Positions 40,172 to 64,000 are shown, numbered from the stretch's first letter. The stretch: 64,000 nt of DNA from Candidatus Shapirobacteria bacterium CG_4_10_14_0_8_um_filter_39_15 (GCA_002784465.1 PFLE01000011.1:3966-67965); one strand, 5' to 3'. Made by a program: numbers and translations. Notes: a model not told the origin generated them from the sequence alone.

Positions 40172-41548
40172 TTAATTCTTTAACTTTTCTACCAGAATAT
40201 TTCTCACTAAATTCGGGCCAGCCTGACCTTTGGTCAATCTGGCAACTTGTCCAATAAGATATTCTAAAACCGGTGTTTTTCCGCCTTTATAATCCGCTAC
40301 CGGCTTAGGATTGTCAGCTAGTACTTGTTCTATCATCTTTTTCAGATTAGATTCTGTAAGAGAGATTGCGGATTTTTTAGTGGCCAATAACTTGATGATT
40401 TGATCCGGATCCAAGGTTTCTGAATCCACCTTTTTATTAATTATGGCGTTAGCAATTTCCAAAGGTTCCAGACGATCAGATTGTCCCAGTTTAACGCATT
40501 TTTCAAAATATTCCGCTTTTTCTTTTGTTTCGGTGAGAATAATAGCGTTTGTTTCAGTAAGTCCAAGCTCTTTTATGTATCGTTTTATCTTTGTATCAGG
40601 TAATTCTATTTTTTGAATTTCGAATTTCGAATTTCGAATTTCCGTTTCAGTCCACTGAAACGGAGGGATATCCGGTTCCGGAAAATACCGATAATCTTCG
40701 GCCTCTTCTTTTGTTCTTTGCAAAAAAGTCTTCTGCTTGACTTCATCCCAGCCCCTGGTTGTTTTGTTACCAGATTGTTTTTCTTGCCCTGTTTTTTCAA
40801 ATTCCTCCAATTGCCGTTGAATTTCATAATCAATCGCTTTTTGAGCGAATTTGAATGAGTTAATATTCTTAATCTCAACCAGAGGTGTATACACCATCTC
40901 GCCTTCCTGCTCTCCTGCCTTCTCGCACTCCAAATTCACGGTTGGTTCGCATCTCATTTGTCCCTTTTCCATATCCGCATCCGATATTCCCAAATAGCGG
41001 ATAATTTGCTGGAGTTTTTGTAAATACTCTTTTACTTGTTCTGTTGAAGTAAAGTCAGGTTCGGTAACAATTTCTACCAGCGGTACTCCGCTTCGGTTAA
41101 AATCAATCAAGGTCGCGTTTTCTCCATGTATTAATTTTGCCGTATCTTCTTCTAAATGTACTCTTCTAATTCTCACAATTTTGTCATTGCGAGGAGCCGA
41201 AGGCGACGTGGCAATCTCTTTAATGACAAGAGAACCGTTAATTGCCAGAGGCATATCATATTGAGAAATCTGGTACCCTTTTGGCAAATCAGGGTAAAAG
41301 TAATTTTTCCGGTCAAATTTTGAGATTTCTGGAATCTGGCACCCTAAAGCCAACCCCAGAAGAATCGTCCATTCAATTGCCTTTTGATTGGGGACTGGCA
41401 AAGCCCCGGGTAATCCTAAACAAACCGGGCAAGTGTGGGAGTTTGGTTCAGTTCCAAAATATTCGGCCGAACATGGGCAAAACATTTTCGAAGAAGTTTT
41501 TAATTCAACATGAACTTCTAAACCGATAATTGTTTTAAAATTGATCAT
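40172..41548 (-). CDS. gatB: Asp-tRNA(Asn)/Glu-tRNA(Gln) amidotransferase subunit B
   Basis: MINFKTIIGLEVHVEL...CPCS...CPVCLGLPGALP. Contains the in-frame GAATTTC x3 repeat at 40615-40636. Confidence 0.9.
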   Translation of the reverse strand: MINFKTIIGLEVHVELKTSSKMFCPCSAEYFGTEPNSHTCPVCLGLPGALPVPNQKAIEWTILLGLALGCQIPEISKFDRKNYFYPDLPKGYQISQYDMPLAINGSLVIKEIATSPSAPRNDKIVRIRRVHLEEDTAKLIHGENATLIDFNRSGVPLVEIVTEPDFTSTEQVKEYLQKLQQIIRYLGISDADMEKGQMRCEPTVNLECEKAGEQEGEMVYTPLVEIKNINSFKFAQKAIDYEIQRQLEEFEKTGQEKQSGNKTTRGWDEVKQKTFLQRTKEEAEDYRYFPEPDIPPFQWTETEIRNSKFEIQKIELPDTKIKRYIKELGLTETNAIILTETKEKAEYFEKCVKLGQSDRLEPLEIANAIINKKVDSETLDPDQIIKLLATKKSAISLTESNLKKMIEQVLADNPKPVADYKGGKTPVLEYLIGQVARLTKGQAGPNLVRNILVEKLKN

Positions 41549-42758
41549 TTTTATTGAATACATAGTAACCAAAACCAAAAGCACCAATAGCAACTAACAA
41601 TAAAATGTAGCCTACTCCTATTAAATCAGCAATCGCCCCGGCAAAAAGGACCGGCGGCAAAGATCCTAAAATTACCAAAAAACCTAATGTCCCAAAAACT
41701 CGAGCCCTAAAATTTTCAGGAGTTTGCTCCTGTAAAAAAGTTTGAGTAGGAATAATAAACATCACCGCTCCTGCTCCCAACAACATCATTATTAAGCTGG
41801 CAAGAATCGTAACCTCGTGAAAAAATCCTACGATTATCGCCAGGATAATTAAACTAAAGGAAGAAATAAAAGCGCCGTAGGTGATCATTTTCCGTTTCCG
41901 CCAATTTCCAGCTAGACGATTGACTAAAATTGCGCCGCCGATCGTTCCTAAAGCCAAAGGAATAATCAGTAACGGACCGGCATCGCGGATATCTATTCGA
42001 AGAACATCAACCGCGTATGAAGGTAAAATAACCGTAAAAAGACTGATCACTACTTGAACGGAAATAAGAATTAATAATGGCGCAAGAATATTTCGATGTT
42101 GACTAATATAATGATACCCTTCTCTTAGTTTACCAATCACCATTAAGAATCTTTTGGTATTGATTTTAAGAATTTTATCATTGGGTAATCGGGAAACCAG
42201 CAAGGATGCCAAAATAAGTAAAATCGAGGTAATTAAAAACGGAATTTTTGGACCAGCAATTCTTAATAATGGACCGGATAAGCCGAAACCAATCAGAAAG
42301 GCGGAGTATTGGGTAAAAAGAAAAATAGTATTGGCCGCCGGTAAAAGAGTCTTTGAAACAATCGAAGGTAAAGTCGCCGCTTCCGCCGGAAAGTAAAGTT
42401 GATTGATAATTGAATATAGAAAAATAATAGCATAGACCGCATAAATTTTATTACCAATAAGAAGAAAGCCCAACACCACAACGCTATTGAGAAGCGTGGT
42501 TATTATTAACGTTTTCTTCCTAGAAATCATGTCCACCAAAGCGCCGCTAAATGGACCTAAAATAATGGCTGGTAAGGAATAAAAAATCCAGACTAAAGAA
42601 ACAGAAGTGGTGGAGTGCGTCCGCTCAAAAATATTAATAATAATAATAAAATTAATCATTTGTAAGGTCACTTGAGAAAAAATCTGCGAACCCCAGATTT
42701 TTTGAAAATTTTTAATTTTTAGAATCTCAATGAGTGGATTGTTCATATATTTTTCCAA
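41535..42758 (-). CDS. MFS transporter
   Basis: 12-TM profile with an MFS N-terminal motif region. It sits between gatA and gatB. Confidence 0.75.
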   Translation of the reverse strand: MEKYMNNPLIEILKIKNFQKIWGSQIFSQVTLQMINFIIIINIFERTHSTTSVSLVWIFYSLPAIILGPFSGALVDMISRKKTLIITTLLNSVVVLGFLLIGNKIYAVYAIIFLYSIINQLYFPAEAATLPSIVSKTLLPAANTIFLFTQYSAFLIGFGLSGPLLRIAGPKIPFLITSILLILASLLVSRLPNDKILKINTKRFLMVIGKLREGYHYISQHRNILAPLLILISVQVVISLFTVILPSYAVDVLRIDIRDAGPLLIIPLALGTIGGAILVNRLAGNWRKRKMITYGAFISSFSLIILAIIVGFFHEVTILASLIMMLLGAGAVMFIIPTQTFLQEQTPENFRARVFGTLGFLVILGSLPPVLFAGAIADLIGVGYILLLVAIGAFGFGYYVFNKNDQF

Positions 42759-44112
42759 CTTGGAAAAGCATTTTTTCAGAAAACTGCGGTCCTAAGATTT
42801 GCATTCCTACCGGCAAACCGTCAACGAAACCAGCAGGGATGGATAAACCCGGAATTCCGGCCAAATTGGCGGTTACCGTATAAATATCAGCCAAATACAT
42901 TTGCATTGGGTCATTAACTTTTTCACCAAGTTTAAAAGGCGGATTAGGAGAAACAGGAGAAATCAAAACATCAACCTTTTTAAAAACCTCATTAAAATCC
43001 CTTTTAATTAAGGTTCTCACTTTCATGGCCTTAAGATAATATGCATCGTAATAACCAGCCGACAAAATATAAGTCCCTAGCATTATTCGCCTTTTGGCTT
43101 CATCGCCAAATTTATCCCGATCATTTCCAAATCTTATCCCGTCGTATCTGGCCAAGTTTGACGATACTTCCGCCGGCTGAATAATATAATAAGCGGCTAG
43201 TGCGTATTTTGTATGCGGCAAGGAAACCTCGATAATCTTAGCCCCCAAATCCTCCAAAACCCCTAAAGCCCCCAAGATTTTCTCTTTTATTCTCGCGTCT
43301 AGTCCTTCACCAAAATATTCTTTCGGCAAGCCGATTCTAATCCTTCTTGTCCCCCTATTCCCTCTAATTCCTTCCAAGTAATCTTCTACAGGCTTATTGG
43401 AACTCGTGGCATCCTTGGGATCAAAACCAGCCGTTACTCCTAAAATTAAAGCGCTGTCTTCAACCGTTTTTGTCAGATGTCCCATACAATCTAAAGAAGA
43501 AGCCATCGCCACTACCCCATATCGTGAAACTCGACCATAAGTTGGTTTTAAACCAACGACATTGCAAAAAGAAGCCGGCAAACGGACTGAACCGCCGGTA
43601 TCGGTTCCCATCGCTGCCAGACATTCATCTGCGGCCGCGGCAACGGCTGATCCACTGGAAGAACCGCCGGGGGTTCGTTCCAAATTCCAGGGATTGCGCG
43701 TTGGACCAAAATCAGAATTTTCTCCTGAAGCTCCATGAGCCCATGCGTCGCAATTGGTTTTGCCAATAATAATTGCCCCAGCATTTTTTAATTTGTCAAC
43801 CACGGTCGCATCGTAAACCGGAATATAATTTTCTAAAACTTTTGAACCGGCGGTTGTCTTAATTCCTTTTGTGCAATAAAGATCTTTTAAGGCAATCGGT
43901 ATTCCCAATAAAGGTTTTCTTTCCCTAAATCCCCTATCTATTTCTACCGCTTTTTCTGTTGCTTCTTCCTCGCAAACCGTAATAAAACTGTTTAATTTAG
44001 AATTAGTTTTATTTATCTGTTCCAAACAGGATTTTACTAACTCCAAACAGGAGAATTGCTTTTTTTTTAATCCTTCCCTGGCTTCTTTTATCGTTAATTC
44101 ATTTAACTTCAT
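42727..44112 (-). CDS. gatA: Glu-tRNA(Gln) amidotransferase subunit A
   Basis: Amidase signature GGSSSGSAVAAAA. 461 aa. Confidence 0.9.
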   Translation of the reverse strand: MKLNELTIKEAREGLKKKQFSCLELVKSCLEQINKTNSKLNSFITVCEEEATEKAVEIDRGFRERKPLLGIPIALKDLYCTKGIKTTAGSKVLENYIPVYDATVVDKLKNAGAIIIGKTNCDAWAHGASGENSDFGPTRNPWNLERTPGGSSSGSAVAAAADECLAAMGTDTGGSVRLPASFCNVVGLKPTYGRVSRYGVVAMASSLDCMGHLTKTVEDSALILGVTAGFDPKDATSSNKPVEDYLEGIRGNRGTRRIRIGLPKEYFGEGLDARIKEKILGALGVLEDLGAKIIEVSLPHTKYALAAYYIIQPAEVSSNLARYDGIRFGNDRDKFGDEAKRRIMLGTYILSAGYYDAYYLKAMKVRTLIKRDFNEVFKKVDVLISPVSPNPPFKLGEKVNDPMQMYLADIYTVTANLAGIPGLSIPAGFVDGLPVGMQILGPQFSEKMLFQVGKIYEQSTH

Positions 44113-44146
44113 ATTTATACATTGTTAATTCATTAAGTTTCATAAA

Positions 44147-44472: not shown

Positions 44473-44473
44473 T

Positions 44474-45367
44474 TTATTCCATTTCTTTTAAGGCTTTAAT
44501 TCTTTCCTGAATGGGCGGATGAGTATTAAATAAACTGGAAATGTTTTTTCCTTTAAACGGATTAACAATATATAAATGAGCCGTGGCCCGATTGGCTGCT
44601 TCCAAAGGTTCTTGATCAGCGGAAATCTTTTCCAAAGCGGATATTAACCCTTCCGGATATTTAGTAATCAAGACCCCGGAGGCATCGGCTAAAAACTCTC
44701 TTCTTCTGGAAATCGCCAGTTGTATTAATTGAGCGATAATCGGCGAAAGTATTGCTAGAATTATTCCGATTAAAAAAAGAATTGCTCCCATATTTCCCCT
44801 CTCTTCCCGATTATCCCGATTACCCCTAAACAATGATCCCCTGATTAACCAGTCCGCTAGTAAAGCTAACATTCCAACCAGGATCGCGACAATTGCCATT
44901 AATCGCGTATCGTAATTTCTAACATGGGATAATTCGTGGGCAACTACCCCTTCCAGTTCCGTCCGGCTTAGCTTGCTTAGCAAACCGGTGGTAGCGCAAA
45001 CAACTGCATGTTGTGGATCACGGCCGGTGGCAAAAGCGTTAGGCGCTGTATCGTCAATCACAAATAATTTAGGCATTGGCATATCGGCTCCCAGACAAAG
45101 ATTTTCCGTTACCGTGTAAAAATTGAAAAAATCCTTGCGGTTGGCCGGTTTTGCCCCGGAGATTGTCAAAATTATTTTATCGCCGTACCAATAACTGGCA
45201 AAACTCATTACGCCGGCAAATATTAAGGCAAAACCTACCATATCCAATCCATAACCAAACGCCATCGATAATGTCCAAGTCACAAAAACAATAAACGCGA
45301 TAAAAATCACGATAATAAATAAACTCCGTCGTTTATTTTGATCTACCTGCTCGTAAACGTTTATCAT
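44474..45367 (-). CDS. htpX: M48 protease HtpX homologue
   Basis: N-terminal TM helices and HELSHV (HExxH). Confidence 0.8.
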   Translation of the reverse strand: MINVYEQVDQNKRRSLFIIVIFIAFIVFVTWTLSMAFGYGLDMVGFALIFAGVMSFASYWYGDKIILTISGAKPANRKDFFNFYTVTENLCLGADMPMPKLFVIDDTAPNAFATGRDPQHAVVCATTGLLSKLSRTELEGVVAHELSHVRNYDTRLMAIVAILVGMLALLADWLIRGSLFRGNRDNREERGNMGAILFLIGIILAILSPIIAQLIQLAISRRREFLADASGVLITKYPEGLISALEKISADQEPLEAANRATAHLYIVNPFKGKNISSLFNTHPPIQERIKALKEME

Positions 45368-45954: not shown

Positions 45955-45985
45955 ATATTTAACTCTTCACCTCCTCTCGTTTTTC

Positions 45986-46021: not shown

Positions 46022-47845
46022 TTATTTATCTAACTCATCCATAAAACGATTCAAATTTAGTGTGTTGATTATATCATTCTTTTCCGCCCATCCTCTTCGG
46101 GCAACCGCCACCCCATACTTCATCATCTTCAATTGATCAACCTGATGGCTGTCGGTATTAATAATTATTTTAACACCTTTTTTTATTGCTTGAAGAACTA
46201 AATTATCCGGTAAATCCAATCTTTCCGGCCAGCAATTTATTTCCAGCCATTTGTTATTTTTTAAGCAAAAATCGAAAATTACCTCCCAGTCGAGTTCGTA
46301 GCCCTCCCGCCGATTCAACATTCGGCCGGTAGGATGACCAAAAATTTTAATTTTTGAGTGAGAAAGTGCCTTAAGAACTCGATCTGTCATTCTCGCACGG
46401 CTTAAGTTAAAACTGGAATGGATTGAAACAATGGCATAATCCAGGTATTTAAAAGCCCCTTCTGGTAGAGCTAATTTTCCGCTTGGTTGGATGTCAATTT
46501 CTAAGCCGTTTAATATCTTTATGGGTAAATTATTTGTTCTTTTTTCACTAGAGTAATTTATTTGATCAATTAAGGCTTTTTTCTTCTTTATTATGGTAAT
46601 AATTTCATTTTCTCGGTGTTGAGAGATACTCGGGTTATGTTCGCTTAAACCTACATACTCATAACCTAACCCCTCGCACTTCCTGACAATCTCTTCTATA
46701 CTGCTCCCTCCTTCATCGTGACTGGTCTCGATCGGGAAATCTGAATGAAGATGTAAATCGCCTTTTATGTCTTTCGGTTCAATAAGCTTTGGTAGACGAT
46801 GCTGCACCGCAGCCGTAATTTCTCCCTGATCCTCTCTCAATTCCGGCGGAATCCAATCTAACCCCAAAAAATCATAAAATGATTCTTCTTTTTCAAATTG
46901 GTAAATTTTTAATTTTGAATTGTAATTTTGACCTTTGAATTTTGATTTTTGACTTAAAATCTTTATTCCATGCTCTGATAGTGACATTTCATTTTTCAAA
47001 GCAAACTCTCGTAAGCTAATATTGTGTGATTTGCTTCCGGTAAAATATTGAAGCATTGCCCCATACGATTCCGGCGTTTGCAACCGAAGATCAATTTGCT
47101 TTCCGTTATCCAAAATCACTCTGACTAATGATTGCTGGCCTTGATCAAGAACTTTTCTCACCTTTGGATATCTAGTAAACCAATCAATAACTTTTTTTGG
47201 GTCGGTTGTTTCCACCGCGATGTCAATATCTCCAATGGTGCTGACCATCCGCCTTAAGCTGCCAAGGGCATCTCCCCGAATTACCGCCGGACATTGTTCC
47301 AAATAATCCAATACTTCGTGGGCCAAGGAATCGGCTACCGGCAATAACATCCGTTTTTCTTTTGTCTGGCCTTTCCTAAACCTCACAATGCCTTCCAAGA
47401 TATCTTTTTCAGTCTTTTCCCCAAATCCCTCAATTTCCCTTATCTTTCCCTTCTTTCCCATATTTTCCAAGTCGACGATCTCTTTACCTTGTCTTAGCTT
47501 TAATTCCCCGGCCAATTGATACGCTGTTTTCGGCCCTATTCCTGGAATGGCAAGCAAAACAAACATCGCTTTAGGTAGATCTTTTTTAACTTCGTCAAAA
47601 TGAGTGACCTTACCAGTCTTAAATAGCTCGTCCAGGTAAGAAGCAATGTTGGGACCAACTCCAGCCAATTGGTCTAATTTACGGTCGTCCCAAAGATCCT
47701 TTACGTCGCTGGTGGCGTGCTCGATACTGGCAGCGGCATTTTCATAAGCCATGATTTTAAATCGGTCTTCATTTTTAACAATATAGGCGGCAGCAATCTC
47801 TCGAAGCAATTCGGCAATTTCCTGATTAGTAAAAGTTTTTTTCAT
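46022..47845 (-). CDS. polX: family X DNA polymerase with C-terminal PHP domain (PolX)
   Basis: N-terminal pol-beta-like HhH region and C-terminal PHP (HLHSDFPIETSHDEGGS). 607 aa. Confidence 0.85.
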   Translation of the reverse strand: MKKTFTNQEIAELLREIAAAYIVKNEDRFKIMAYENAAASIEHATSDVKDLWDDRKLDQLAGVGPNIASYLDELFKTGKVTHFDEVKKDLPKAMFVLLAIPGIGPKTAYQLAGELKLRQGKEIVDLENMGKKGKIREIEGFGEKTEKDILEGIVRFRKGQTKEKRMLLPVADSLAHEVLDYLEQCPAVIRGDALGSLRRMVSTIGDIDIAVETTDPKKVIDWFTRYPKVRKVLDQGQQSLVRVILDNGKQIDLRLQTPESYGAMLQYFTGSKSHNISLREFALKNEMSLSEHGIKILSQKSKFKGQNYNSKLKIYQFEKEESFYDFLGLDWIPPELREDQGEITAAVQHRLPKLIEPKDIKGDLHLHSDFPIETSHDEGGSSIEEIVRKCEGLGYEYVGLSEHNPSISQHRENEIITIIKKKKALIDQINYSSEKRTNNLPIKILNGLEIDIQPSGKLALPEGAFKYLDYAIVSIHSSFNLSRARMTDRVLKALSHSKIKIFGHPTGRMLNRREGYELDWEVIFDFCLKNNKWLEINCWPERLDLPDNLVLQAIKKGVKIIINTDSHQVDQLKMMKYGVAVARRGWAEKNDIINTLNLNRFMDELDK

Positions 47846-49554: not shown

Positions 49555-50763
49555 ATTTATTCCAAGCAAAATCCACCACCATCCCATTATCCACGGATAA
49601 AAAAGCGTATTGGTAAAGCAGGAGTGAATAAGCAAAGCAATTAAACTGGAACGGATAATTATATCTCCTTCCCGCCAAGCAACCCTCAAAATCCCCAAAT
49701 ACCCTAACAATCCTAAAACTCCTGTGGTTGCCAAAACAAATAATAAACTCGAATCAACCCCAGCCGCCGAATGGGCCGAATCTTCGCTGATTCTTTCTTC
49801 AATAAATCCATATTTTCCCTGGGCATAGCGGTAGCTATTGAAACCAACACCCAACAATAAGTGATCGCGGGAAATCGTTAGGGCGTGTTCCCAATTAATT
49901 ATTCGGTAACGAATTGTGCTGTCGCGTTCTAGTCTTACCCCCTCTCCGCCAGGTCTTGGTAAAATTAATAATGTAATAAACAGTAATCCAACGATTTTAA
50001 AAATAAACCTTGGTTTCTTTTTAATTAACCCTAACATTCCCAAACCCCCTAAAAACCCTAAATAACTAGCTCTTGAATATGTTAAGGCCAATGCCACGTA
50101 TGTAATGATCCAGACAATGATCAGAATTTTCTTTTTATCCTGCCAAATTTTTTCCGTTAATAAAATTAAGGTTAAAACAAGAATTATTCCCAAAAATCCC
50201 GGATCAAGAAATGTGCCAATCAACCGATAATAGTGCGGGTCCCATCCGAATTGGGCCAAGAAACGGGTATCGGGCAGAAAAATATACTGAACCAAGCCCA
50301 AAATTCCGCAAACAACTCCGGCTGCTATCAATCCACTTATCACCCTGATTTTCCCCGATACTTTCCCAATATCCCTGACAACAAAATATAGTCCGGCGTA
50401 AACTATCCATCGGAAAAGATAAAGAAAAGAAATTCCAAATTGCTTCGTGGTTAAAGAAGAATAATTAACCAGCAAAGAAAATAGGCCTAAACCAAAAAAA
50501 ATTAATATCGGTTTGGTCAAAGAGGTTGAAACTCCTCTTTTTTCCCTTATCCTCCTCATCACCCACATCACCCCTACTAGTCCTACGATCACATCCGTTA
50601 AGTAAAAATGAACCAGCGAAAGTTGCGTTGACTGTGGCGGAATCCGTAACAACTGTCCAAGTGGAAATAGAAAAAGATAAAGGTATAGCAATATAAGAAC
50701 CTTGCTTTCAGCAAGAACCTTGTTTTTCGCTTCGCTCAAAATAGCAATATATTTTTTGTTCAT
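49519..50763 (-). CDS. O-antigen ligase/polymerase-like (Wzy_C) polytopic membrane protein
   Basis: About 10-12 TM helices, with a TYSRASYLGFLGGLG region typical of the O-antigen ligase family. Confidence 0.5.
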   Translation of the reverse strand: MNKKYIAILSEAKNKVLAESKVLILLYLYLFLFPLGQLLRIPPQSTQLSLVHFYLTDVIVGLVGVMWVMRRIREKRGVSTSLTKPILIFFGLGLFSLLVNYSSLTTKQFGISFLYLFRWIVYAGLYFVVRDIGKVSGKIRVISGLIAAGVVCGILGLVQYIFLPDTRFLAQFGWDPHYYRLIGTFLDPGFLGIILVLTLILLTEKIWQDKKKILIIVWIITYVALALTYSRASYLGFLGGLGMLGLIKKKPRFIFKIVGLLFITLLILPRPGGEGVRLERDSTIRYRIINWEHALTISRDHLLLGVGFNSYRYAQGKYGFIEERISEDSAHSAAGVDSSLLFVLATTGVLGLLGYLGILRVAWREGDIIIRSSLIALLIHSCFTNTLFYPWIMGWWWILLGINEKSRGAKLDHL

Positions 50764-52385
50764 ATTTTTCCTCCAAATAAATATACCTTAACTTTTGTTT
50801 GAGAATTTTGATAAAGCAATATTTTGTTTCCAAACTTTGCCGGCAATTTTTCATTGTTTCCCACCAAAATATGAGTAAAACTGGTGCCAGGCTTAGCCCA
50901 CGATTCGTGAACATAAGGAAAATCTAAATAGTATAGATTATGAATTCCATAAACCAAAACCAGATCGTCTTTTTGAATATTGTTTTTAAACCAGCCGTCA
51001 ACATCATAAAAATCTCCATAAGAAAAGTTTAAATTACGGTTTAAAAATTCGGTTTTCGTTTCTTTTCCCAATAAGTAAGGAACAAATTTTCTGGCCGCTA
51101 ACATTCTGCTTCCCATGTTTAATCCAGCAGTAAATATGACCAATGAGACGAATAAGACTAATTTATCTTTCTGTTTTTCTAATATGGAAAAAGTTACTAA
51201 GGTTAAAGCTGGTAAATAGGGAAGAAGATAACGGTTCGATTGGGTCGGTGCCAAGAAAATTGCGAGCAAAAAATATAACGCCGTAATTTTGATAGGAGCA
51301 GATTGTTTCCAAATAAAAATTAATACCAATGGTAAAAAGATCAGATAAATTGGTGAAATAATATCATCGGGTTTTAAGGTTGCCTGCCAAAGAAAAAAAG
51401 GAGCGGTTATAAAATTTTTAATAAGATCCACAATATTAGGTAGAAGCGATGGTCCAGACGAACCAGTGCAGCCGAAAGAAAACAGGAACCAGGGGCTAAC
51501 GATTAATAAAGCTAATCCGATAAATTTCCCTGCTCTCCCAACAATCCCAACTATCCCTTCTTCCTTTAATAAAAATATTAAAATTCCAAAAGCCCCCAAT
51601 GTCCCCAATGCTAAAATCTTAGTCGCCATTACCAACCCCACCATTACCGCTGATTCCCATAACCAGACATCTTTCTTGGTCTCGTTCCATCTTAAAAATA
51701 AATCCAGGGCCAAAATTTCAAAAAAGGTTCGGGCCAAATCAACATAGGTCGTCGTTGATTGCCAACCAACAATCAGCATCGTATAGAAAGTCAGAACTCC
51801 CAACAAAGCAAATCTTAAGGTTAAATATCTCCTTAACAAACCAAATAACGCCAAAAGCCCTAATAACCCAAAGAAGAAATGAATTAGTTTAGCGGCAATT
51901 TCGTTGGAAAAAAGCAGAGCCGCCGTGTAATACATTTCCGTTAAACGGGGGAGATTGGCCGGCCACATAAGCCAGCCCGGGAAAGAAAAAATCTGGTGAT
52001 GTTCAATATATAATCTCGCCGAAGTTAAGTGATACCAAAGAGCGTCAAAAGAAAGTTCCGGTGAAATCGCGCCCAGGAAGTTTATTAAAATCTGAATTCC
52101 AAGTAAACCGAGTATTACTATTATTAATTTATCTTTTTTAATTTCGGTGATAACCCTGATTTCCCCGATTTCCCTAATCACCCTGATTATCCTAAATAAA
52201 CCATAAACTAAAAAGGGGATTGTTATTAAAAAAATTTCTACTTTTCCTAATCTTCCCAAAATTCCTAATGAGAAGACCAAATATCCATAGATTCCTAAAA
52301 TTATTCCCAACTCTACCATAATCCGCCCCTTTCCCCGAGCATTAGAATATATTTTCCCATTACTAATAAAACCCATATAACCCAC
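50760..52385 (-). CDS. GT39/ArnT-like polytopic membrane glycosyltransferase
   Basis: 541 aa and highly hydrophobic. Contains the in-frame EIR-type repeat at 52154-52192. Confidence 0.4.
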   Translation of the reverse strand: MGYMGFISNGKIYSNARGKGRIMVELGIILGIYGYLVFSLGILGRLGKVEIFLITIPFLVYGLFRIIRVIREIGEIRVITEIKKDKLIIVILGLLGIQILINFLGAISPELSFDALWYHLTSARLYIEHHQIFSFPGWLMWPANLPRLTEMYYTAALLFSNEIAAKLIHFFFGLLGLLALFGLLRRYLTLRFALLGVLTFYTMLIVGWQSTTTYVDLARTFFEILALDLFLRWNETKKDVWLWESAVMVGLVMATKILALGTLGAFGILIFLLKEEGIVGIVGRAGKFIGLALLIVSPWFLFSFGCTGSSGPSLLPNIVDLIKNFITAPFFLWQATLKPDDIISPIYLIFLPLVLIFIWKQSAPIKITALYFLLAIFLAPTQSNRYLLPYLPALTLVTFSILEKQKDKLVLFVSLVIFTAGLNMGSRMLAARKFVPYLLGKETKTEFLNRNLNFSYGDFYDVDGWFKNNIQKDDLVLVYGIHNLYYLDFPYVHESWAKPGTSFTHILVGNNEKLPAKFGNKILLYQNSQTKVKVYLFGGKI

Positions 52386-52401
52386 CCTACCCTCAACACC
52401 C

Positions 52402-53175
52402 TCATTTTCCCTGCTTCCATAATAAATATAATTTAGACCTGACTAAAAATGAATGAAAACTCATTAATAAGGCAACCGCAAATCCCGGCATTCCATCCAT
52501 AAATCCCAACCGGAAAATCCAGTTTTGAAAAAACTTTCCTAACGGAAAACAAATAATTTCCAGCAAATTTGTCTTTTTGCCTTGATCATATAATTCTTTC
52601 GCCCGTAAAGTGGAATAAAAATTAACCTCTTCCAGAAATTCCGTCATGGTGGGGTGGGGGAGATGCACTAAAGGATTTTCCAATTCTCCCAAATCCTTTA
52701 CGCCTATTTCCCATCTTTCGTGGACTTTTCCTTCCCATTTCCCCGCCTCTTTTCTTCCTAGTCTCAATAATTTCACACTTCCCGCTTCTCCATGCTTTAA
52801 TTCCCTACCCCAGATCATATCCAGCCGTTTTAAATAAAAACCCGTAACTAAGGGAGATTTATAGGAAGTAACTGATTCAATTTCTCTTCTCAATTCAGGT
52901 GAAACTCTTTCATCCGCATCCACAAATAAAATCCAGTCCCCTTTCGCCTTTTCCAATCCAAAATTTCTCTGCCTGGCAAAATCCCCATCAAGTGATCTTG
53001 AAAAAATTTTTATTTTCTCGCATCCCGCTTCCCGCATCTCGCTTCTGACTATCTCCAAGGTTTTATCGTCGGAACAATCATCCACCAGCACAATCTCATC
53101 CGCCCATTTAACTGATTCCAGGCATTCCTCAATATTCCTTTCCTCATTTTTAGTAAGAATTACAACAGAAAGCAT
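52402..53175 (-). CDS. family 2 glycosyltransferase
   Basis: MLSVVILTKNEERNIEECLESV...EIVLVDDCSDDKT. Confidence 0.8.
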   Translation of the reverse strand: MLSVVILTKNEERNIEECLESVKWADEIVLVDDCSDDKTLEIVRSEMREAGCEKIKIFSRSLDGDFARQRNFGLEKAKGDWILFVDADERVSPELRREIESVTSYKSPLVTGFYLKRLDMIWGRELKHGEAGSVKLLRLGRKEAGKWEGKVHERWEIGVKDLGELENPLVHLPHPTMTEFLEEVNFYSTLRAKELYDQGKKTNLLEIICFPLGKFFQNWIFRLGFMDGMPGFAVALLMSFHSFLVRSKLYLLWKQGK

Positions 53176-58214: not shown

Positions 58215-58222
58215 AACGAAAG

Positions 58223-59822: not shown

Positions 59823-59824
59823 TT

Positions 59825-60070: not shown

Positions 60071-60165
60071 CTTAAAAAGAGTTTAAGCCATTTTTTCACG
60101 CGAGTCAAGCCCTGAAAATAAACGATTTATTTTTAGTGTTCTACTGGGGGTCAAGAGGAATTAAA

Positions 60166-60483
60166 TCAAACAGAAGAAATCTTTTCTATCGTAACTTGGG
60201 TATAAGAATGCCTATAACCAACAACTTTATGGTATCTTGATTTTGCTTTAAATTTCGCGGTTCTGACTTTTTGACCCTTAACCGCTCCTTTAACTTTTGC
60301 CTTAACAACCGTTTTTTCGATTATTGGTTGACCAATTTTTATTTTGTCTTCATCAACCAATAGCAATACCTGATCAAAATCGACTTCCTTGCCTTCTTCT
60401 AAGGATAAATTGTCTACCAAAAGGTCTTCTCCTTCGAAAACTTTATATTGACGGCCGCCATTTTTAATCACCGCGTATTTCAT
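60166..60483 (-). CDS. rplU: 50S ribosomal protein L21
   Basis: MKYAVIKNGGRQYKVFEGEDL... Confidence 0.9.
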   Translation of the reverse strand: MKYAVIKNGGRQYKVFEGEDLLVDNLSLEEGKEVDFDQVLLLVDEDKIKIGQPIIEKTVVKAKVKGAVKGQKVRTAKFKAKSRYHKVVGYRHSYTQVTIEKISSV

Positions 60484-60506
60484 TTTATGGATTATATCAA
60501 ATAATG

Positions 60507-61583
60507 TTACTTGATTTCAACCACCTCTTGATTTTTCTCAAATTTTCCGGCGGCTTCTACCAAACCGAAACAAATCATTGTTGCTAAAGCCGACGATCCG
60601 CCATAGGAAACGAACGGAAGCGGAATTCCGGTAATCGGCATTATTCCCATATTCATCCCGATATTGACGAAAATCTGGAAAAAAAGCATGGAAAAAACGC
60701 CTAAGCAAACAAGACTCGCAAATTTTGAATGACTATTTTGGGCATGTTTAAGAACGCGAAACAAAAGAATCAGATAACACATTATGACAATTGCTGCACC
60801 CACCAACCCAAATTCTTCGCTTAAAGACGCAAACATAAAATCCGTGTGCCTTTCCGGCAAAAAAGCCAAATGCGATTGGGTTCCCCTTCCCAGACCCCGG
60901 CCGAATAATTCACCGGAACCAACGGCAATAACCGCCTGAATCAAGTTATATCCCGAACCAAGAGGATCGTTATAAGGATTTAGAAAACTCAAAAAACGGC
61001 TTTTTTGGTAATCATGAAGAAAAAACCAAAAAGCAGGAATAATCATCAATATCAGAACAAAAAAACCGGCGATTGGTTTTTTCGTGATTCCTCCTCCAAG
61101 TAAAATGCCGGTCAAAACCGCCGCAATAATTAAACTGCTGCCTAAATCCGGCTGTTTAAAGATTAAAACAAGAGGGATGAGTGCCAATAAAAAAATCGCT
61201 GCTAAATGAGGAATTTTTAGCTTGTCCCATCCGGCGATTAACGAAGCAAAAAAAATAATCAGTAATGGTTTGACCATCTCCGACGGCTGAATCGAGTAAT
61301 TACCAATCGGTATCCAGCGAATCGAACCCCTCGTGACTTCACCTAAAATAAAAGTTAGAAAAAGGAAAAAAATGGAAAATAGATAGATAATTTTACTAAA
61401 ATTTTGAAAAATTCTAATATCAAATCCGGAAACAATGAAAAAAAGTAATAAGCCGACCAATAGAAAAACCAATTGCTGGTTAAAAAGCGAGGGAGTTAAA
61501 CTCCATACCATTACTAAACCAAAAGTGGAAACTATCAAAATCGAGAAGAGAATGACAAAATCAAAATTTTTGAAATATTTCAT
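60507..61583 (-). CDS. SEDS-family peptidoglycan glycosyltransferase (FtsW/RodA)
   Basis: 10-TM SEDS pattern with the C-terminal ...VSYGGSSALATMICFGL motif. Confidence 0.8.
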   Translation of the reverse strand: MKYFKNFDFVILFSILIVSTFGLVMVWSLTPSLFNQQLVFLLVGLLLFFIVSGFDIRIFQNFSKIIYLFSIFFLFLTFILGEVTRGSIRWIPIGNYSIQPSEMVKPLLIIFFASLIAGWDKLKIPHLAAIFLLALIPLVLIFKQPDLGSSLIIAAVLTGILLGGGITKKPIAGFFVLILMIIPAFWFFLHDYQKSRFLSFLNPYNDPLGSGYNLIQAVIAVGSGELFGRGLGRGTQSHLAFLPERHTDFMFASLSEEFGLVGAAIVIMCYLILLFRVLKHAQNSHSKFASLVCLGVFSMLFFQIFVNIGMNMGIMPITGIPLPFVSYGGSSALATMICFGLVEAAGKFEKNQEVVEIK

Positions 61584-64000
61584 TCGTTCAAACGTTTGAT
61601 CGAAAGAGTCTCGCCTTCATGAATCTCCGAAGCCAATGTTTGTTTCTTAATAAAATCTTCAAAAGCTTTTTGTACATTTGGAATATATACAATGACTTTT
61701 TCGTCTAGTAAACAGCCGGCAGTTTTCCTCAACTCTTGAATTTGCCGAATCAGATCTCTAACCTCGCCCTCAATCTTCAGTTCTTCGTTTATATTTGTGT
61801 CCAACTCAACTTTCAGCTCACCCTTTCCTTGTAAAACTTCTACCTTCTTTACGTTCAATTCATCTTCGATCAATTTCAATAATTCATTATCTAACTTCTC
61901 GTTTCCCTGCCTCGCCGCAAGGCGGGCCACTTCCAACTTCAATTTTTGTAAGGGTTGTCTCACCTTAATTCCTGCCTCTTTTCTTTTTGCGTGTCCCATC
62001 TCGCATATTTCCCTCACCATCCTCATCTCCCGCACCAACCCCATATCGATTTTCCCCACCGCAGGCCAATCAGACAGATGAACCGATTCCTCTTTCGTTA
62101 AATTTCGATAAATATCCTCCGCCAAGAAAGGTGTAAACGGCCCTAACAGCCGTGCCAGACTAACCAAGACTTCCCAAAGAGTTTCGTAGCATGAATCCTT
62201 GTCTTCCTGATTTGCTGTCGATGGACCGATCCGATCCCGTGATCTACGAATATACCAAGTTGACAAATCCGAGACGAAATCTTCAATCGCATGACTGGCG
62301 GTATAGGCGTCATATTTTTCTAACGATTCGGTCACAGTCTTTACCAGTTCATTCAATCTCGCCATTATCCATCTATCCAAAATGTTTCTCGCTTCCCGCT
62401 TCTCACCTCCCATTTCCCACTGGTCAATATTTGCATAGGTAACAAAGAAATTGTATATGTTCCAGAGAATCAAGTGAAATTTCCTTCTGGTTTCATCGGC
62501 CACATGATAACCAAAATTTAAATTGATTTCGGGATTTTGCGTCACGTACATCCACCGCATCACATCCACCCCGATTTTTTCGGCTGCCTCATCAAACCAG
62601 ATCGCGTTCCCCTTACTTTTGTGCATCTCTTCACCCTTTTCGTCCATCACGGTGGCATAGCCGAATAACGACTTAAAAGGATTGGTGTCTTCCATAACCG
62701 TTGACATCACTAATAATGAATAAAACCAGTTCTTAAACTGTCCCGGAAAGGATTCGGTCACAAAATCGGCCGGAAACCAATCTTTCGGCAAAGTTGAGAA
62801 AGGCACAATTCCGGCATCAAGCCAGGGATTTCCCACGTCTTTAATTCGGTTCATTAATTTTCCACACTTCGGACATTTTATTTTAACTTTATCGACCCAA
62901 GGACGATGTGGTGAATGATCCCAAAATCCTTTACCCTGAGCATCAGCGAAGGGCTCAACGGTCTTTTCTTTTAGCTCTTTCTTACTGCCGATTACCTCGA
63001 AATATCCGCATTCGCACTCCCAAATGGGTAAAGCCAGTCCCCAATATCTTTTTTTGGAAATTAACCAATCGTGCATATTTTTTATCCAATCAAGTTCCTG
63101 ATCCTTGCCCCAAGAAGGAATCCAGGTGATTTTTTCAACCACTTTTCGCATCGGATCACGCAGCGGATCCATTTTTATATACCATTCATCAACCACCCGC
63201 CAAACCAATTCGGTTTTACATCGCCAACACTGGGGATAACGATGAGTATATTTTTCAAGTTTAAATAAAAATTTCCCGTTATCTTTTTCTTTCAGAAAAC
63301 CAAATATCAATCCCGGGTCGTCTTTAGCATTTTTACCGGTTAAATCTCCATAACCATCAACATAGTTTGCGGCTTCATCTATTACCTCCACAATTGGTAG
63401 TTTCTCTCTTACGCCAAGTTGGAAATCCTCCGTACCGGCGCCGGGAACGATATGAACAATACCCGTACCTTCTTCGGCCGTCACTAAATCCTTTTCCAAA
63501 AAAACAAGATGATAAGTTTCCGGATAATCTTTTTTTGCCTGAATATTAATCGGTAGGTCGTCAAACGGCGCCGTATAATGTTCTCCTGCCAACTCAATTC
63601 CCCTGATTTCCCTGATTAACCTGATTTCCCTGATTCCAAACACTTTCGGTGCCAGATCTTTTGCCAAGATTAAAGTTTCTTTCTCTCCTTCTACTTCAAA
63701 TTCCCCATAGGTAAAGGTCGGGTTAACCGCTAAAGCAATATCGGCCGGAATTGTCCAGGGAGTGGTCGTCCAGACCAAAAATGCGGATGGATGATCAGAA
63801 TTTAAACGGTGACACTTAAAATAAACGGAAGTATGGGTTATTTCTTTATATTCTTCTGTTAAAATCTCGTGTTGAGAAATAGCCGTGCCGCAACGCGGAC
63901 ACCAGGGAACGCTGTCTCTACCTTTATACAACCAACCATTTTCGTGACACTGACGAAGGAAGTGCCAAATCATATAATTATTTTCATCAGACATTGTGTA
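61580..64000 (-). CDS. ileS: isoleucyl-tRNA synthetase, N-terminus beyond the window end
   Basis: ...MIWHFLRQCHENGWLYKGRDSVPWCPRCGTAISQHE..., KMSKS-type region, C-terminal Zn-finger-like. Contains the in-frame CCTGATTTC-type repeat at 63601-63637. The ORF-track Met at 63994 is internal. Confidence 0.9.
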   Translation of the reverse strand, partial: YTMSDENNYMIWHFLRQCHENGWLYKGRDSVPWCPRCGTAISQHEILTEEYKEITHTSVYFKCHRLNSDHPSAFLVWTTTPWTIPADIALAVNPTFTYGEFEVEGEKETLILAKDLAPKVFGIREIRLIREIRGIELAGEHYTAPFDDLPINIQAKKDYPETYHLVFLEKDLVTAEEGTGIVHIVPGAGTEDFQLGVREKLPIVEVIDEAANYVDGYGDLTGKNAKDDPGLIFGFLKEKDNGKFLFKLEKYTHRYPQCWRCKTELVWRVVDEWYIKMDPLRDPMRKVVEKITWIPSWGKDQELDWIKNMHDWLISKKRYWGLALPIWECECGYFEVIGSKKELKEKTVEPFADAQGKGFWDHSPHRPWVDKVKIKCPKCGKLMNRIKDVGNPWLDAGIVPFSTLPKDWFPADFVTESFPGQFKNWFYSLLVMSTVMEDTNPFKSLFGYATVMDEKGEEMHKSKGNAIWFDEAAEKIGVDVMRWMYVTQNPEINLNFGYHVADETRRKFHLILWNIYNFFVTYANIDQWEMGGEKREARNILDRWIMARLNELVKTVTESLEKYDAYTASHAIEDFVSDLSTWYIRRSRDRIGPSTANQEDKDSCYETLWEVLVSLARLLGPFTPFLAEDIYRNLTKEESVHLSDWPAVGKIDMGLVREMRMVREICEMGHAKRKEAGIKVRQPLQKLKLEVARLAARQGNEKLDNELLKLIEDELNVKKVEVLQGKGELKVELDTNINEELKIEGEVRDLIRQIQELRKTAGCLLDEKVIVYIPNVQKAFEDFIKKQTLASEIHEGETLSIKRLNE

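What the first reader, a model, noticed from the sequence alone, without database searches (positions are those of the whole stretch)
40615..63637. In-frame AT-rich microsatellite insertions encoding EIR-type peptides inside four conserved genes (gatB, polX, GT39-like, ileS)
The repeats are: gatB GAATTTC x3 (40615-40636, encoding KFEIRNSKFEI); polX (A)ATTTTGA-type x5 (46904-46953, ...SKFKGQNYNSKLKIYQFEKEE); the GT39-like gene CCTGATTTCC-type x4 (52154-52192, RIIRVIREIGEIRVITEI); and ileS CCTGATTTC/CCTGATTAA x4 (63601-63637, IREIRLIREIRGIEL).

The nucleotide units are related (GAAAT(C/T)...). All are in frame and all land in otherwise highly conserved enzymes. The same 9-mer (GGAAATCAGG on the coding strand) occurs in two unrelated genes.

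This looks like a lineage-specific class of expandable in-frame repeats, or mini-insertions tolerated in surface loops. They could be phase-variable in length.
Basis: seen in the sequence. Interest (0 to 1): 0.5.

Follow-up and report, generated by a model that had tools for sequence, protein, structure and literature searches.

The report
Short DNA repeats inside essential genes
Four short DNA repeats inside conserved genes of an uncultured groundwater bacterium are real, but three of them are not insertions; the exception in interest is a 7-base repeat in the translation gene gatB, which sits at the same spot in many distantly related lineages and breaks the gene when it loses one copy.

Summary
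All four repeats exist, on minus-strand genes of a Candidatus Shapirobacteria (Microgenomates/CPR) genome. The window as a whole has about 3 times more short tandem repeats than shuffled sequence.

The "in-frame insertion" reading fails for three of the four. The gatB, ileS and GT39-like repeats occupy segments as long as in orthologues and solved structures (+0 to +2 aa). Only the polX repeat is a real loop insertion (~10-14 aa), and it is old.

There are two repeat classes, not one:
- Imperfect 9-nt arrays with core AATC(A/G)GG in ileS, GT39-like and also HtpX. This unit is a generic tandem unit: at least 120 unrelated metagenome loci carry it, read in all three frames.
- A/T-rich 7-nt arrays in gatB (perfect) and polX (decayed).

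No in-frame array varies among roughly 10-16 same-species assemblies.

The gatB tract, (GAAATTC)4, is the only perfect tandem repeat in the 64 kb. A 7-nt tract lies at the same codons in most sampled Microgenomates lineages, with different units but a fixed length. It is kept at the nucleotide level while synonymous sites elsewhere are saturated. One assembly has one unit fewer, which frameshifts gatB. Orthologues show further hot spots of this kind in gatB and ileS.

Best reading: slippage-generated, length-frozen coding microsatellites. An adaptive switch is unproven.

The parts
40172..41548 (-). gatB (GatCAB amidotransferase subunit B), 458 aa from the MINFK start. The ORF is open up to 41593.
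   Evidence: Pfam GatB_N 1.5e-108 and GatB_Yqey. 100% identical to P0001/P0361/P0362, which NCBI names Candidatus Shapirobacteria GatB.
40615..40642 (-). Perfect heptanucleotide tract (GAAATTC)x4 on the coding strand. In the register shared with orthologues it reads G(AAATTCG)x3 AAATTCA. It encodes EIRNSKFEIQ within the first helix after the YRYFPEPD motif.
   Evidence: It is the only perfect tandem repeat (period 4-12, >=3 copies, >=20 nt) in the 64 kb. One unit is missing in assembly L001, which splits gatB. Orthologous 7-nt tracts occur in other lineages.
46022..47845 (-). polX (family X DNA polymerase with PHP domain), 607 aa.
   Evidence: Pfam HHH_8, DNA_pol_B_thumb and PHP. T. thermophilus PolX 3au2_A matches at 4.8e-108.
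46904..46955 (-). Decayed heptanucleotide array, unit TCAAAAT (= AAATTCA), about 7-8 units. It encodes SQKSKFKGQNYNSKLKIY and is a true insertion in a thumb-domain hairpin.
   Evidence: TRF rows. About 10 aa longer than P0368 and about 14 aa longer than 3au2_A. P0389 carries the homologous TQNSKLKTQKYNSKLKVYQ. Invariant in 10 same-species loci.
47434..47468 (-). Second, weak 9-10-nt repeat in polX (GATAGGGAAA-type). It encodes GKKGKIREIEG and is not an insertion.
   Evidence: TRF. Alignment (second block).
50760..52376 (-). GT39-like (PMT_2 / ArnT-like) membrane glycosyltransferase, 538 aa as called in public assemblies.
   Evidence: Pfam PMT_2 6.9e-05, below the cut-off. Homologues carry PF13231 and some carry the NCBI name 'glycosyltransferase family 39 protein'.
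52154..52197 (-). Imperfect 9-nt array (AGG-GNN-ATY)x5. It encodes RIIRVIREIGEIRVI in the loop after the second N-terminal hydrophobic segment. It also matches a canonical G-quadruplex motif on the coding strand.
   Evidence: The loop is +1 aa relative to P0242. Invariant in same-species entries.
61580..64000 (-). ileS (isoleucyl-tRNA synthetase). The N-terminal ~136 codons run off the window end.
   Evidence: Pfam tRNA-synt_1, Anticodon_1 and DUF5915. P0121 is 100% identical. 1ile_A matches at 2e-139.
63597..63637 (-). Imperfect 9-nt array (NNAATCAGG)x4.3. It encodes GIREIRLIREIRG inside the CP1 editing domain and does not change the segment length.
   Evidence: Invariant in all cluster members that cover it.
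44787..44826 (-). It is read in another frame (RGNRDNREERGN).
53015..53045 (-). Decayed 7-nt array (GCGGGAA-type x4.4) in a GT2 glycosyltransferase gene (52402-53175). It encodes SEMREAGCE.
   Evidence: TRF. Sequence. Invariant among cluster members.

Best explanation
These are independent short tandem repeats made by local replication slippage or misaligned repair. They lie in protein segments whose sequence is free to vary but whose length is not. They are not a family of inserted elements.

The host is a Candidatus Shapirobacteria genome that is generally rich in short tandem repeats. There are two kinds of repeat.

(1) Imperfect 9-nt (3-codon) arrays with an AATC(A/G)GG core, in ileS, GT39-like and HtpX. 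They have overwritten ancestral loop or hairpin sequence without net length change, and they are stable in the population.

(2) A/T-rich heptanucleotide arrays.
- The polX array is an old, decayed loop expansion.
- The gatB array is a perfect (GAAATTC)4 tract and is orthologous across Microgenomates. The same codons carry a tract of about 4-5 units in most sampled lineages, with lineage-specific units (AAATCTC, AAATTTC, AAATATC, CAGCTAT, AAATTCG ...).
- Read in three frames, such a tract yields a 7-residue peptide period, which I infer fits the amphipathic first helix after the catalytic domain.

Why the gatB tract stays perfect is inferred as follows. Seven is not a multiple of three, so every +/-1 unit slip is a frameshift and is purged. 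Length is therefore frozen. Misaligned repair or slippage events that restore the length would homogenise the units (concerted evolution), which would keep tracts perfect for long periods.

The deleterious by-product is visible: a minus-one-unit allele that truncates GatB after the catalytic domain.

Shown: the anatomy, the orthology, the nucleotide-level maintenance and the frameshift allele. Inferred: the slippage/conversion mechanism and the helix fit.
For: Not insertions:
- Alignments to orthologues and to solved structures.
- polX is the exception.

General excess of tandem repeats: 56 arrays against 18 +/- 5 in shuffles.

The HtpX site reads the same core in another frame.

Stability: all arrays except gatB are identical in up to 10 loci and in all cluster members.

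gatB tract:
- It is the only perfect tract in the window.
- Perfect 28-37-nt 7-periodic tracts occur in 7 of 9 lineages, at the same codons and in the same register, with 5 different units.
- 51 of 117 orthologues have at least 8 of 11 residues explained by a single 7-nt unit, against 0.5% of control windows.
- The segment length is always 16 or 18 aa and never differs by +/-7 aa.
- In the L012/L140/L143 pairs, synonymous-codon identity is 9/10, 9/10 and 10/11 inside the tract, against 0.35-0.46 elsewhere.
- The only indel in the aligned same-species DNA (roughly 100 kb summed over ten loci) is the loss of one unit in L001, on a haplotype whose linked SNP also occurs with a full-length tract in L006.

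Further hot spots in orthologues: a second gatB site with perfect 7-nt tracts in L012, L013, L015 and L141, and two ileS sites seen at the peptide level.
Against: - No direct measurement of slippage or conversion exists. The length-neutral homogenisation step is inferred.
- A tract of four or five 7-nt units is short for a hypermutable SSR.
- Only one length variant was seen (1 of about 14 contigs), and read-level support could not be checked.
- The same AAATCTC unit is retained in three lineages with saturated synonymous sites. That could equally reflect purifying selection on the nucleotide sequence, which would imply an unknown DNA/RNA-level or mutability function rather than neutral homogenisation.
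- The concentration of perfect tracts in gatB (11 in about 13.5 kb against 2 in about 116 kb of other DNA) is not predicted by a purely neutral, genome-wide slippage process. However, the sample of loci was centred on gatB.
- The ileS and GT39-like arrays share a 16-of-18-nt stretch, which chance explains only marginally.
Confidence: 0.68

Rival explanations
1. The repeats form a lineage-specific class of expandable, in-frame micro-insertions encoding EIR-type peptides. They are tolerated in surface loops of conserved enzymes and may vary in length.
For: - The polX repeat is a true insertion in a loop of variable length.
- The ileS and GT39-like arrays share GGAAATCAGG.
- The ileS and GT39-like repeat sequences are absent from the closest orthologues.
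Against: - gatB, ileS and GT39-like show no extra length relative to orthologues or structures.
- There is no copy-number variation in any in-frame array.
- 'EIR' arises from different codons in gatB than in ileS/GT39-like.
- HtpX reads the same DNA core as NR, not IR.
- The 9-nt unit is widespread in unrelated organisms and in all frames.
- The gatB tract is not lineage-specific.
Confidence: 0.07
2. The gatB heptanucleotide tract, and the analogous tracts in gatB and ileS of related lineages, is a selected contingency locus. Reversible +/-1 unit slippage would switch off or lower GatCAB (or IleRS) activity in a subpopulation. This would raise Gln/Asn mistranslation or slow growth as a bet-hedging strategy in organisms with few regulators.
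For: - The non-triplet tract is kept perfect at the nucleotide level across deep lineages.
- Perfect tracts are concentrated in gatB, and there are several hot spots in two tRNA-charging genes.
- A minus-one-unit OFF allele and an independent R167-to-stop allele of gatB both segregate in the same population, among only about 15 variants in total.
- Partial loss of GatCAB causes adaptive mistranslation and drug tolerance in mycobacteria (PMC8406222, PMC7541841).
Against: - There are only 4-5 units, and tract length does not vary among lineages as it does in classical contingency loci.
- The OFF allele was seen on 1 of about 14 contigs.
- gatB is normally essential, and an OFF cell must keep replicating in order to revert.
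- There is no evidence of reversibility.
- Whether GlnRS or AsnRS exist in this genome is unknown.
Confidence: 0.12
3. The 9-nt arrays are functional G-quadruplex motifs (a GGG every 9 nt on the coding strand and in the mRNA) embedded in coding sequence. They would be maintained for a DNA- or RNA-level role.
For: - The window contains 7 canonical (G3N1-7)x4 motifs against 0.7 expected; 0 of 200 shuffles reach 7.
- Six of the seven are on the minus strand, including the GT39-like and HtpX arrays.
- Two distant GT39-like orthologues carry their own GGG-every-9-nt arrays in the same loop.
Against: - The ileS array has only three G3 tracts with long loops, and the gatB and polX repeats have no G tracts.
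- GGG periodicity follows directly from (Gly/Arg-x-x)n codon periodicity, for example GIVGIVGRAG at 51528-51557.
- The closest orthologues lack the arrays.
- No structural test was possible.
Confidence: 0.06
4. The repeats, or the gatB length variant, are assembly or sequencing artefacts.
For: The gatB minus-one-unit allele is known from a single MEGAHIT contig.
Against: - The arrays are identical in up to 10 independent assemblies from NCBI, JGI, ENA and Logan, including three NCBI MAGs.
- The arrays are 28-52 nt long, far shorter than reads or the final k-mer size.
- ORFs stay open through them.
- The L001 deletion sits on a haplotype whose linked SNP occurs independently in L006.
Confidence: 0.03

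Closest known systems
Simple-sequence-repeat contingency loci (phase variation) of Haemophilus, Neisseria and Campylobacter, including intragenic heptanucleotide tracts such as (AATTTTG)14 in H. influenzae hmw1a (PMC2651432)
   Same: - An uninterrupted non-triplet unit lies inside an ORF.
- Gain or loss of one unit frameshifts the gene.
- A minus-one-unit allele is observed in a natural population.
   Different: - There are only 4-5 units, against typically 8-40.
- Tract length is fixed across a whole phylum-level clade instead of varying between strains.
- The host gene is an essential translation gene, not a surface, LPS or restriction-modification gene.
- Reversibility and high switching frequency are not shown.
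Multicopy elements of four or five tandem heptanucleotides in Geobacter metallireducens (GGGACCG x4 at 49 intra- and intergenic sites; MTYCTGA x5 at 15 sites; PMC2700814)
   Same: - They are arrays of 4-5 tandem heptamers.
[quoted passage not shown]
- Their function is unknown.
   Different: - In Geobacter one unit is shared by dozens of loci in one genome and is GC-rich.
- Here the unit differs between sites and lineages, while the position is conserved between lineages.
- Orthologous conservation is not reported for Geobacter.
Concerted evolution of tandem repeats by slipped-strand mispairing or unequal exchange (general model)
   Same: - Units within an array are identical, while arrays in different lineages differ.
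- Arrays persist longer than point-mutation decay would allow.
   Different: - Here the unit is out of frame with the codons, so homogenisation has to be length-neutral.
- The array lies in an essential coding sequence.
In-frame selfish insertions in conserved genes (Rickettsia palindromic elements) and lineage-specific insertions in CPR proteins
   Same: Repetitive DNA lies inside otherwise conserved enzymes and is translated as part of the protein.
   Different: - There is no added length in three of the four genes.
- There is no palindrome.
- The arrays are 28-52 nt rather than 100-150 nt.
- No multicopy consensus exists beyond a 7-9-nt core.
Nonanucleotide (G-x-y / N-Q-G / E-S-G) low-complexity coding repeats found throughout metagenomes
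   Same: They use the same AATC(A/G)GG-containing 9-nt unit, in frame and tandem.
   Different: - Those arrays are usually longer (up to 28 units).
- They lie in low-complexity proteins rather than in a catalytic domain of ileS.

Membership tests
Lineage-specific in-frame insertion | The segment adds residues relative to close orthologues and to solved structures. | tested here: not met
   gatB is +0 aa against its length class of orthologues and +2 aa against 3h0l_B/3al0_B. ileS is +0 aa against orthologues and +1 aa against 1ile_A. GT39-like is +1 aa against P0242. The feature is met only for polX (+10 to +14 aa).
Lineage-specific in-frame insertion | The repeat sequence is absent from orthologues of other lineages. 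| tested here: inconclusive
   - Absent from the closest ileS and GT39-like orthologues.
- Analogous 9-nt arrays recur in two distant GT39-like orthologues.
- gatB tracts are present in most sampled lineages.
- The polX duplication is shared with P0389.
SSR contingency (phase-variable) locus | An uninterrupted tract of identical units is placed so that a unit change alters the reading frame or expression. | tested here: met
   gatB has a perfect (GAAATTC)x4 tract inside the ORF. This does not apply to the 9-nt arrays, whose unit is a multiple of three.
SSR contingency (phase-variable) locus | Tract-length polymorphism exists among closely related strains or within populations. | tested here: inconclusive
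   There is one minus-one-unit allele (L001, ERZ27293400) among about 14 contigs that carry gatB. All other arrays are invariant. Read-level frequencies are not available.
SSR contingency (phase-variable) locus | Switching is reversible and frequent, and ON and OFF lengths both recur. | not testable with these tools
   This needs read-level or culture data. Across 117 orthologues the segment length takes only two in-frame values.
SSR contingency (phase-variable) locus | The tract is long enough to be hypermutable (usually at least 6-8 units for units of 4 nt or more). | tested here: not met
   4.0-5.3 units in all nine lineages examined.
Mobile or multicopy in-frame element (RPE-like, or Geobacter heptamer elements) | The same consensus is present at many loci of one genome. 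| tested here: not met
   - Only three loci share the AATCRGG core, over 16-18 nt.
- GAAATCAGG is not enriched outside the arrays.
- gatB site 1 and site 2 units differ within genomes.
- Only 64 kb of this genome was available.
G-quadruplex motif | At least four G3 tracts are separated by loops of 1-7 nt on one strand. | tested here: inconclusive
   Met for the GT39-like (52154-52183) and HtpX (44787-44826) arrays. Not met for ileS, gatB or polX.
G-quadruplex motif | A quadruplex actually forms. | not testable with these tools
   No G4 folding tool or experiment was available.

The most novel reading that the evidence does not exclude
Microgenomates (CPR) bacteria maintain, by selection, position-conserved heptanucleotide arrays of 4-5 units inside tRNA-charging genes. 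There are two sites in gatB and two in ileS. The arrays would act as built-in mutational switches, or as sites for an unknown nucleic-acid-level process, and would tune translation fidelity or growth in subpopulations. The window's gatB tract and its frameshift allele would be one instance.
Probability: 0.12. Interest if true: 0.8.

Novelty: new variant of a known kind. Interest (0 to 1): 0.5.

Why it matters
As originally stated, the finding is ordinary: short coding tandem repeats in permissive protein segments, mostly misread as insertions.

The follow-up turned up something less ordinary. An out-of-frame (7-nt) microsatellite sits in an essential translation gene. Its position and length are conserved across a phylum-level clade, while its unit sequence turns over in concert. 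It is kept perfect while synonymous sites elsewhere are saturated.

Non-triplet repeats are normally thought to be avoided in essential genes. A conserved one gives a natural system for two questions:
- How are tandem repeats homogenised when their length cannot change?
- Do reduced-genome symbionts with few regulators exploit mutational switches in core translation genes? Partial GatCAB loss is known to cause adaptive mistranslation in mycobacteria.

There is also a practical point. These tracts are predictable sites of apparent "split" or "pseudogenised" gatB and ileS calls in CPR metagenome-assembled genomes.

Tried and rejected
- **Genome-contig scan with polX.** It returned only a 35%-identical Desulfitobacteriaceae locus, so no syntenic close relatives were obtained that way.
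- **One family of related units.** Rejected. gatB/polX units (AAATTCG / AAATTCA, 6 of 7 identical) and ileS/GT39-like units (GGGAAATCA) share only 'GAAAT'.
- **Selection for an EIR peptide.** Rejected. The codons differ between gatB and ileS/GT39-like, and HtpX reads the same DNA core as NR.
- **Lineage-specific 9-mer element.** Rejected by the metagenome scan. At least 120 hits, across all GC contents and all frames.
- **Copy-number variation of the in-frame arrays.** Looked for in 10 loci and in 90%-identity cluster members. None found.
- **Contig break of NCBI PFEJ01000019.1 inside ileS.** It falls at about window position 63113, roughly 490 nt from the array, so it is not evidence of repeat instability (my calculation coordinates).
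- **Heptamer as a -1 ribosomal frameshift slippery site (X XXY YYZ).** Only AAATTTC fits this pattern and the other units do not. Rejected.
- **RNA structure or a known RNA family at the arrays.** Rfam finds only 6 tRNAs in the window. The A/T/C-only tracts cannot self-pair.
- **Window's own ileS at the two orthologue hot spots.** No 7-nt periodicity there.
- **Literature searches.** Searches for CPR/Patescibacteria plus SSR, phase variation or heptanucleotide found no prior description in the held library.

Full report

All four repeats are present on the minus strand, inside intact ORFs. Pfam confirms the genes:
- GatB (GatB_N 1.5e-108).
- A family X polymerase with a PHP domain.
- A PMT_2/GT39-like membrane glycosyltransferase. 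The match is weak here, but homologues carry PF13231.
- IleRS, whose N-terminus runs off the window.

- gatB is (GAAATTC)x4.0 perfect at 40615-40642 and encodes TETEIRNSKFEIQ.
- The polX repeat (46904-46955) is an imperfect 7/13/20-nt periodicity.
- The GT39-like (52154-52197) and ileS (63597-63637) repeats are imperfect 9-nt arrays.

The repeats are more than chance:
- TRF finds 56 merged arrays against 18 +/- 5 in dinucleotide shuffles, and 8 against 0.6 at score >=50.
- The two-unit pattern AATCRGGNNAATCRGG gives 12 hits against 2.3 expected.
- That search also reveals a fifth site, in the HtpX/M48 gene (44806-44821).

Outside the arrays the 9-mer is not enriched (28 against 21.6).

**2. 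Whose genome is it?**

Exact-protein look-ups place the region in Candidatus Shapirobacteria (Microgenomates, CPR) MAGs from groundwater/geyser metagenomes (NCBI GCA_002793655.1; proteins PIU/PIY/PJE...). There are many independent JGI, ENA and Logan assemblies of the same species. The nearest other lineages are only 65-77% identical at the protein level.

**3. Are they insertions?**

- **gatB: no.** WTETEIRNSKFEIQKIELPD aligns without gaps to orthologues such as WTKKQIEDLKIKVLKLELPD. It aligns to Aquifex and Thermotoga GatB with a 2-residue difference. It is the universal first helix after the YRYFPEPD motif.
- **ileS: no.** VFGIREIRLIREIRGIELAGEHY aligns gap-free with VLEGKKWKVRNELKGNDLVGEQY of the 71%-identical orthologue. 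It is +1 aa relative to T. thermophilus IleRS, within the CP1 editing domain.
- **GT39-like: no.** The loop is +1 aa relative to the 77%-identical orthologue, and similar in length to most others.
- **polX: yes.** It is about 10 aa longer than the closest representative and about 14 aa longer than T. thermophilus PolX. The hairpin length ranges from 0 to about +30 aa among lineages. A 53%-identical relative shares TQNSKLKTQKYNSKLKVYQ, so the duplication is old.

**4. Do they vary?**

In ten same-species loci, and in all members of the 90%-identity clusters, the ileS, GT39-like, polX, HtpX and GT2 arrays are invariant.

The aligned same-species DNA sums to roughly 100 kb over ten loci. The single indel in it is the loss of one heptamer in gatB in assembly L001 (ERZ27293400). 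That splits gatB into a 316-aa and an 85-aa ORF. The deletion lies on a haplotype marked by Q327K, a SNP that L006 carries with a full-length tract. A real variant is therefore more likely than an artefact.

A second, independent null allele (R167 CGA to TGA) is the only difference in the 8-kb contig L005.

**5. One class or two?**

The ileS, GT39-like and HtpX arrays share AATC(A/G)GG. HtpX reads it in another frame (GNRDNR), so the likeness is at the DNA level.

They come from organisms of 17-73% GC and are read in all three frames: NQG/NQD, ESG/KSG/QSG, and xIR/xIG, including EIREIREIR. The unit is therefore a generic nonanucleotide repeat, not a lineage-specific element.

The gatB and polX units (AAATTCG and AAATTCA in the same rotation) are A/T-rich heptamers unrelated to the 9-mers. 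'EIR' in gatB uses GAA ATT CGA, against GAA ATC AGG in ileS and GT39-like.

**6. The gatB tract is unusual.**

It is the only perfect tandem repeat (period 4-12, >=3 copies, >=20 nt) in the 64 kb.

Orthologue peptides at the same columns are three-frame read-outs of other heptamers: KSQISNLKSQI = (AAATCTC)n, KFQISNFKFQIS = (AAATTTC)n, KYQISNIKYQIS = (AAATATC)n.

DNA from eight other lineages confirms this. Perfect 28-37-nt 7-periodic tracts occur in 7 of 9 lineages, at the same codons and in the same register:

| Lineage | Unit | Copies |
|---|---|---|
| window | GAAATTC | 4.0 |
| L012 | AAATCTC | 4.9 |
| L140 | AAATCTC | 4.6 |
| L143 | AAATCTC | 4.6 |
| L013 | AAATTTC | 5.3 |
| L015 | AAATATC | 5.1 |
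| L141 | CAGCTAT | 4.7 |

Two lineages have decayed versions (L016 and L142).

Further evidence:
- At the peptide level, 51 of 117 orthologues have at least 8 of 11 residues explained by one unit, against 0.5% of control windows.
- The distance from FPEPDxxP to ELP is 16 aa (79 proteins) or 18 aa (34 proteins), and never differs by +/-7 aa.
- For the three AAATCTC lineages (57-65% protein identity), synonymous-codon identity is 0.35-0.46 outside the tract. Inside it is 9/10, 9/10 and 10/11. My binomial estimate is about 2e-3 to 2e-4.

So the tract is maintained at the nucleotide level. Its unit changes in concert within a lineage, and its length is frozen.

**7. It is not unique to that site.**

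Other lineages carry a second perfect heptamer tract in gatB, in the hairpin before RIRRVHLEED: L012 (AATGGCA)x4.7, L013 (AAGTTCC)x4.7, L015 (GTTTCAG)x3.4 and L141 (AAACCAA)x3.6.

In the DNA I hold, perfect tracts number 11 in about 13.5 kb of gatB against 2 in about 116 kb of other sequence. The sample is centred on gatB, so this ratio is biased.

The peptide signature occurs at these rates per 10,000 residues:

| Gene family | Tracts per 10,000 residues |
|---|---|
| gatB | 4.7 |
| ileS | 1.1 |
| GT39-like | 0.16 |
| polX | 0 |

In ileS the signature clusters at two orthologous sites: after TYANID, and directly after IKVRQPL. At least about 30 of 120 proteins show it, for example KCQMSNVKCQMSN, KFEIRNLKFEI and KLQITNYKLQI. 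The window's own ileS has no tract at these sites. These ileS tracts are inferred from protein sequence only.

**8. Mechanism.**

Shown:
- The anatomy, the orthology, concerted unit change and constant length.
- Nucleotide-level maintenance.
- One frameshift allele.

Inferred:
- Slipped-strand mispairing or misaligned repair creates and homogenises the arrays.
- Because 7 is not divisible by 3, products with a net +/-1 unit change are null alleles and are purged. Only length-restoring products survive. This would explain perfect tracts of constant length with lineage-specific units.
- Three heptamers equal one 7-residue peptide period with hydrophobic residues at positions i, i+3 and i+7, which suits the amphipathic helix seen in GatB structures.
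- The 16-aa and 18-aa classes correspond to 36 and 42 nt. This is compatible with one unit gained plus a 1-nt compensation, but that is speculation.
- The 9-nt arrays are ordinary in-frame slippage products in a loop (GT39-like), a hairpin (ileS) and a Gly/Arg-rich loop (HtpX).

**9. Rivals.**

- **A selected contingency switch in gatB.** It is attractive for three reasons: the nucleotide-level maintenance, the concentration of tracts in tRNA-charging genes, and the two segregating null alleles. Partial GatCAB loss also gives adaptive mistranslation in mycobacteria (PMC8406222, PMC7541841). Against it: the tracts are short, their length is invariant between lineages, and reversibility is untested.
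- **A G-quadruplex role for the 9-nt arrays.** It rests on 7 canonical motifs against 0.7 expected. It does not cover ileS, gatB or polX, and it follows trivially from Gly/Arg codon periodicity.
- **Artefact.** Excluded by the many independent assemblies.

**10. Comparison with known systems.**

The closest are:
- SSR contingency loci, which include intragenic heptanucleotide tracts in H. influenzae (PMC2651432).
- The unexplained 4-5x tandem heptanucleotide elements inside and between genes of Geobacter metallireducens (PMC2700814).
- General concerted evolution of tandem repeats.

The gatB tract meets the anatomical criterion of a contingency locus. It does not meet the criteria of tract length or between-strain length variation. 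I therefore do not file it as one.

I found no description of such tracts in CPR genomes in the searchable library.

**11. Verdict.**

- The finding as written is mostly a misreading: three of the four repeats are not insertions, the repeats are not one class, and the in-frame arrays are not variable.
- The repeats themselves are real.
- The gatB heptanucleotide tract is a position-conserved, length-frozen, concertedly evolving coding microsatellite, with an observed frameshift allele. It is a new variant of a known kind and deserves a phylum-wide and read-level follow-up.

Noticed in passing
L012:1313-1345, L013:1337-1369, L015:1330-1353, L141:822-846 (gatB codons ~105-123 in other Microgenomates lineages): A second perfect heptanucleotide tract lies in gatB, in the hairpin between GYQISQYDxPL..NG and RIRRVHLEED. 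The units are unrelated: AATGGCA, AAGTTCC, GTTTCAG and AAACCAA. It is absent from the window's gatB.
   Followed up: partly
ileS orthologues P0125-P0233 (protein level only): after TYANID, and directly after IKVRQPL: Two orthologous hot spots carry peptides that are three-frame read-outs of 7-nt units, for example KCQMSNVKCQMSN, KFEIRNLKFEI and FKIQNSKFKI. P0193 appears to use the same unit (AAATTCG, also the window's gatB unit) at both sites. The DNA could not be fetched.
   Followed up: partly
L005 (ERZ27293399), corresponding to window 41095: gatB R167 CGA to TGA (nonsense) is the only difference from the window in an 8-kb contig. Together with the heptamer-loss allele in L001, this gives two independent gatB null alleles in the same species population. 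gatA also carries T86K in L002.
   Followed up: partly
window 15622-15660, 26474-26499, 44787-44826, 50029-50058, 51528-51557, 52154-52183, 52372-52411: There are seven canonical G-quadruplex motifs (G3N1-7)x4 in a ~38% GC window, against 0.7 expected from shuffles. Six are on the minus (mostly coding) strand. There are fewer GGG runs than in shuffles, so the excess comes from regular spacing.
   Followed up: partly
window 41535-42758: An MFS transporter gene sits between gatA and gatB and overlaps both ends. The same arrangement (MFS, then gatB, then GGDEF or dnaE) is conserved in several distant Microgenomates loci (L012-L016, L141, L142).
   Followed up: no
window 23695-25173: A single ORF combines a LexA DNA-binding domain and an S24 peptidase with an N6/N4 DNA methylase domain (Pfam). 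This is an unusual LexA-methyltransferase fusion.
   Followed up: no
window 13689-14309 (tail at 13694-13815): This ORF (my reading from its translation: RuvC-like resolvase) ends in a low-complexity tail, TETSNTETQKTTKQKHVTRNHRKKNTETQNEITPKL. The tail is encoded by overlapping 8-, 15- and 22-nt tandem repeats.
   Followed up: no
window 14530-14847 and 16437-16916: A small ORF that looks like a GIY-YIG nuclease lies between tRNA-Glu and tRNA-Lys. A transposase-like ORF lies nearby. A 28-nt tandem repeat (14819-14881) abuts tRNA-Lys. The protein assignments are my reading of the translations and were not tested against a profile library.
   Followed up: no
L017:10001-11614 and L018:386-1972 (GT39-like orthologues P0310, P0302): Two distant orthologues (43-45% identity) have their own 9-nt AGG-GNN-ATA arrays (LRVIREIWEIRG; GIRGIREI) in the same loop as the window's array. 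Closer orthologues have none, so this repeat type has emerged recurrently at one site.
   Followed up: partly
window 28421-30403: A single 660-aa ORF fuses a CbiQ-type ECF transporter transmembrane domain with two ABC ATPase domains (Pfam).
   Followed up: no
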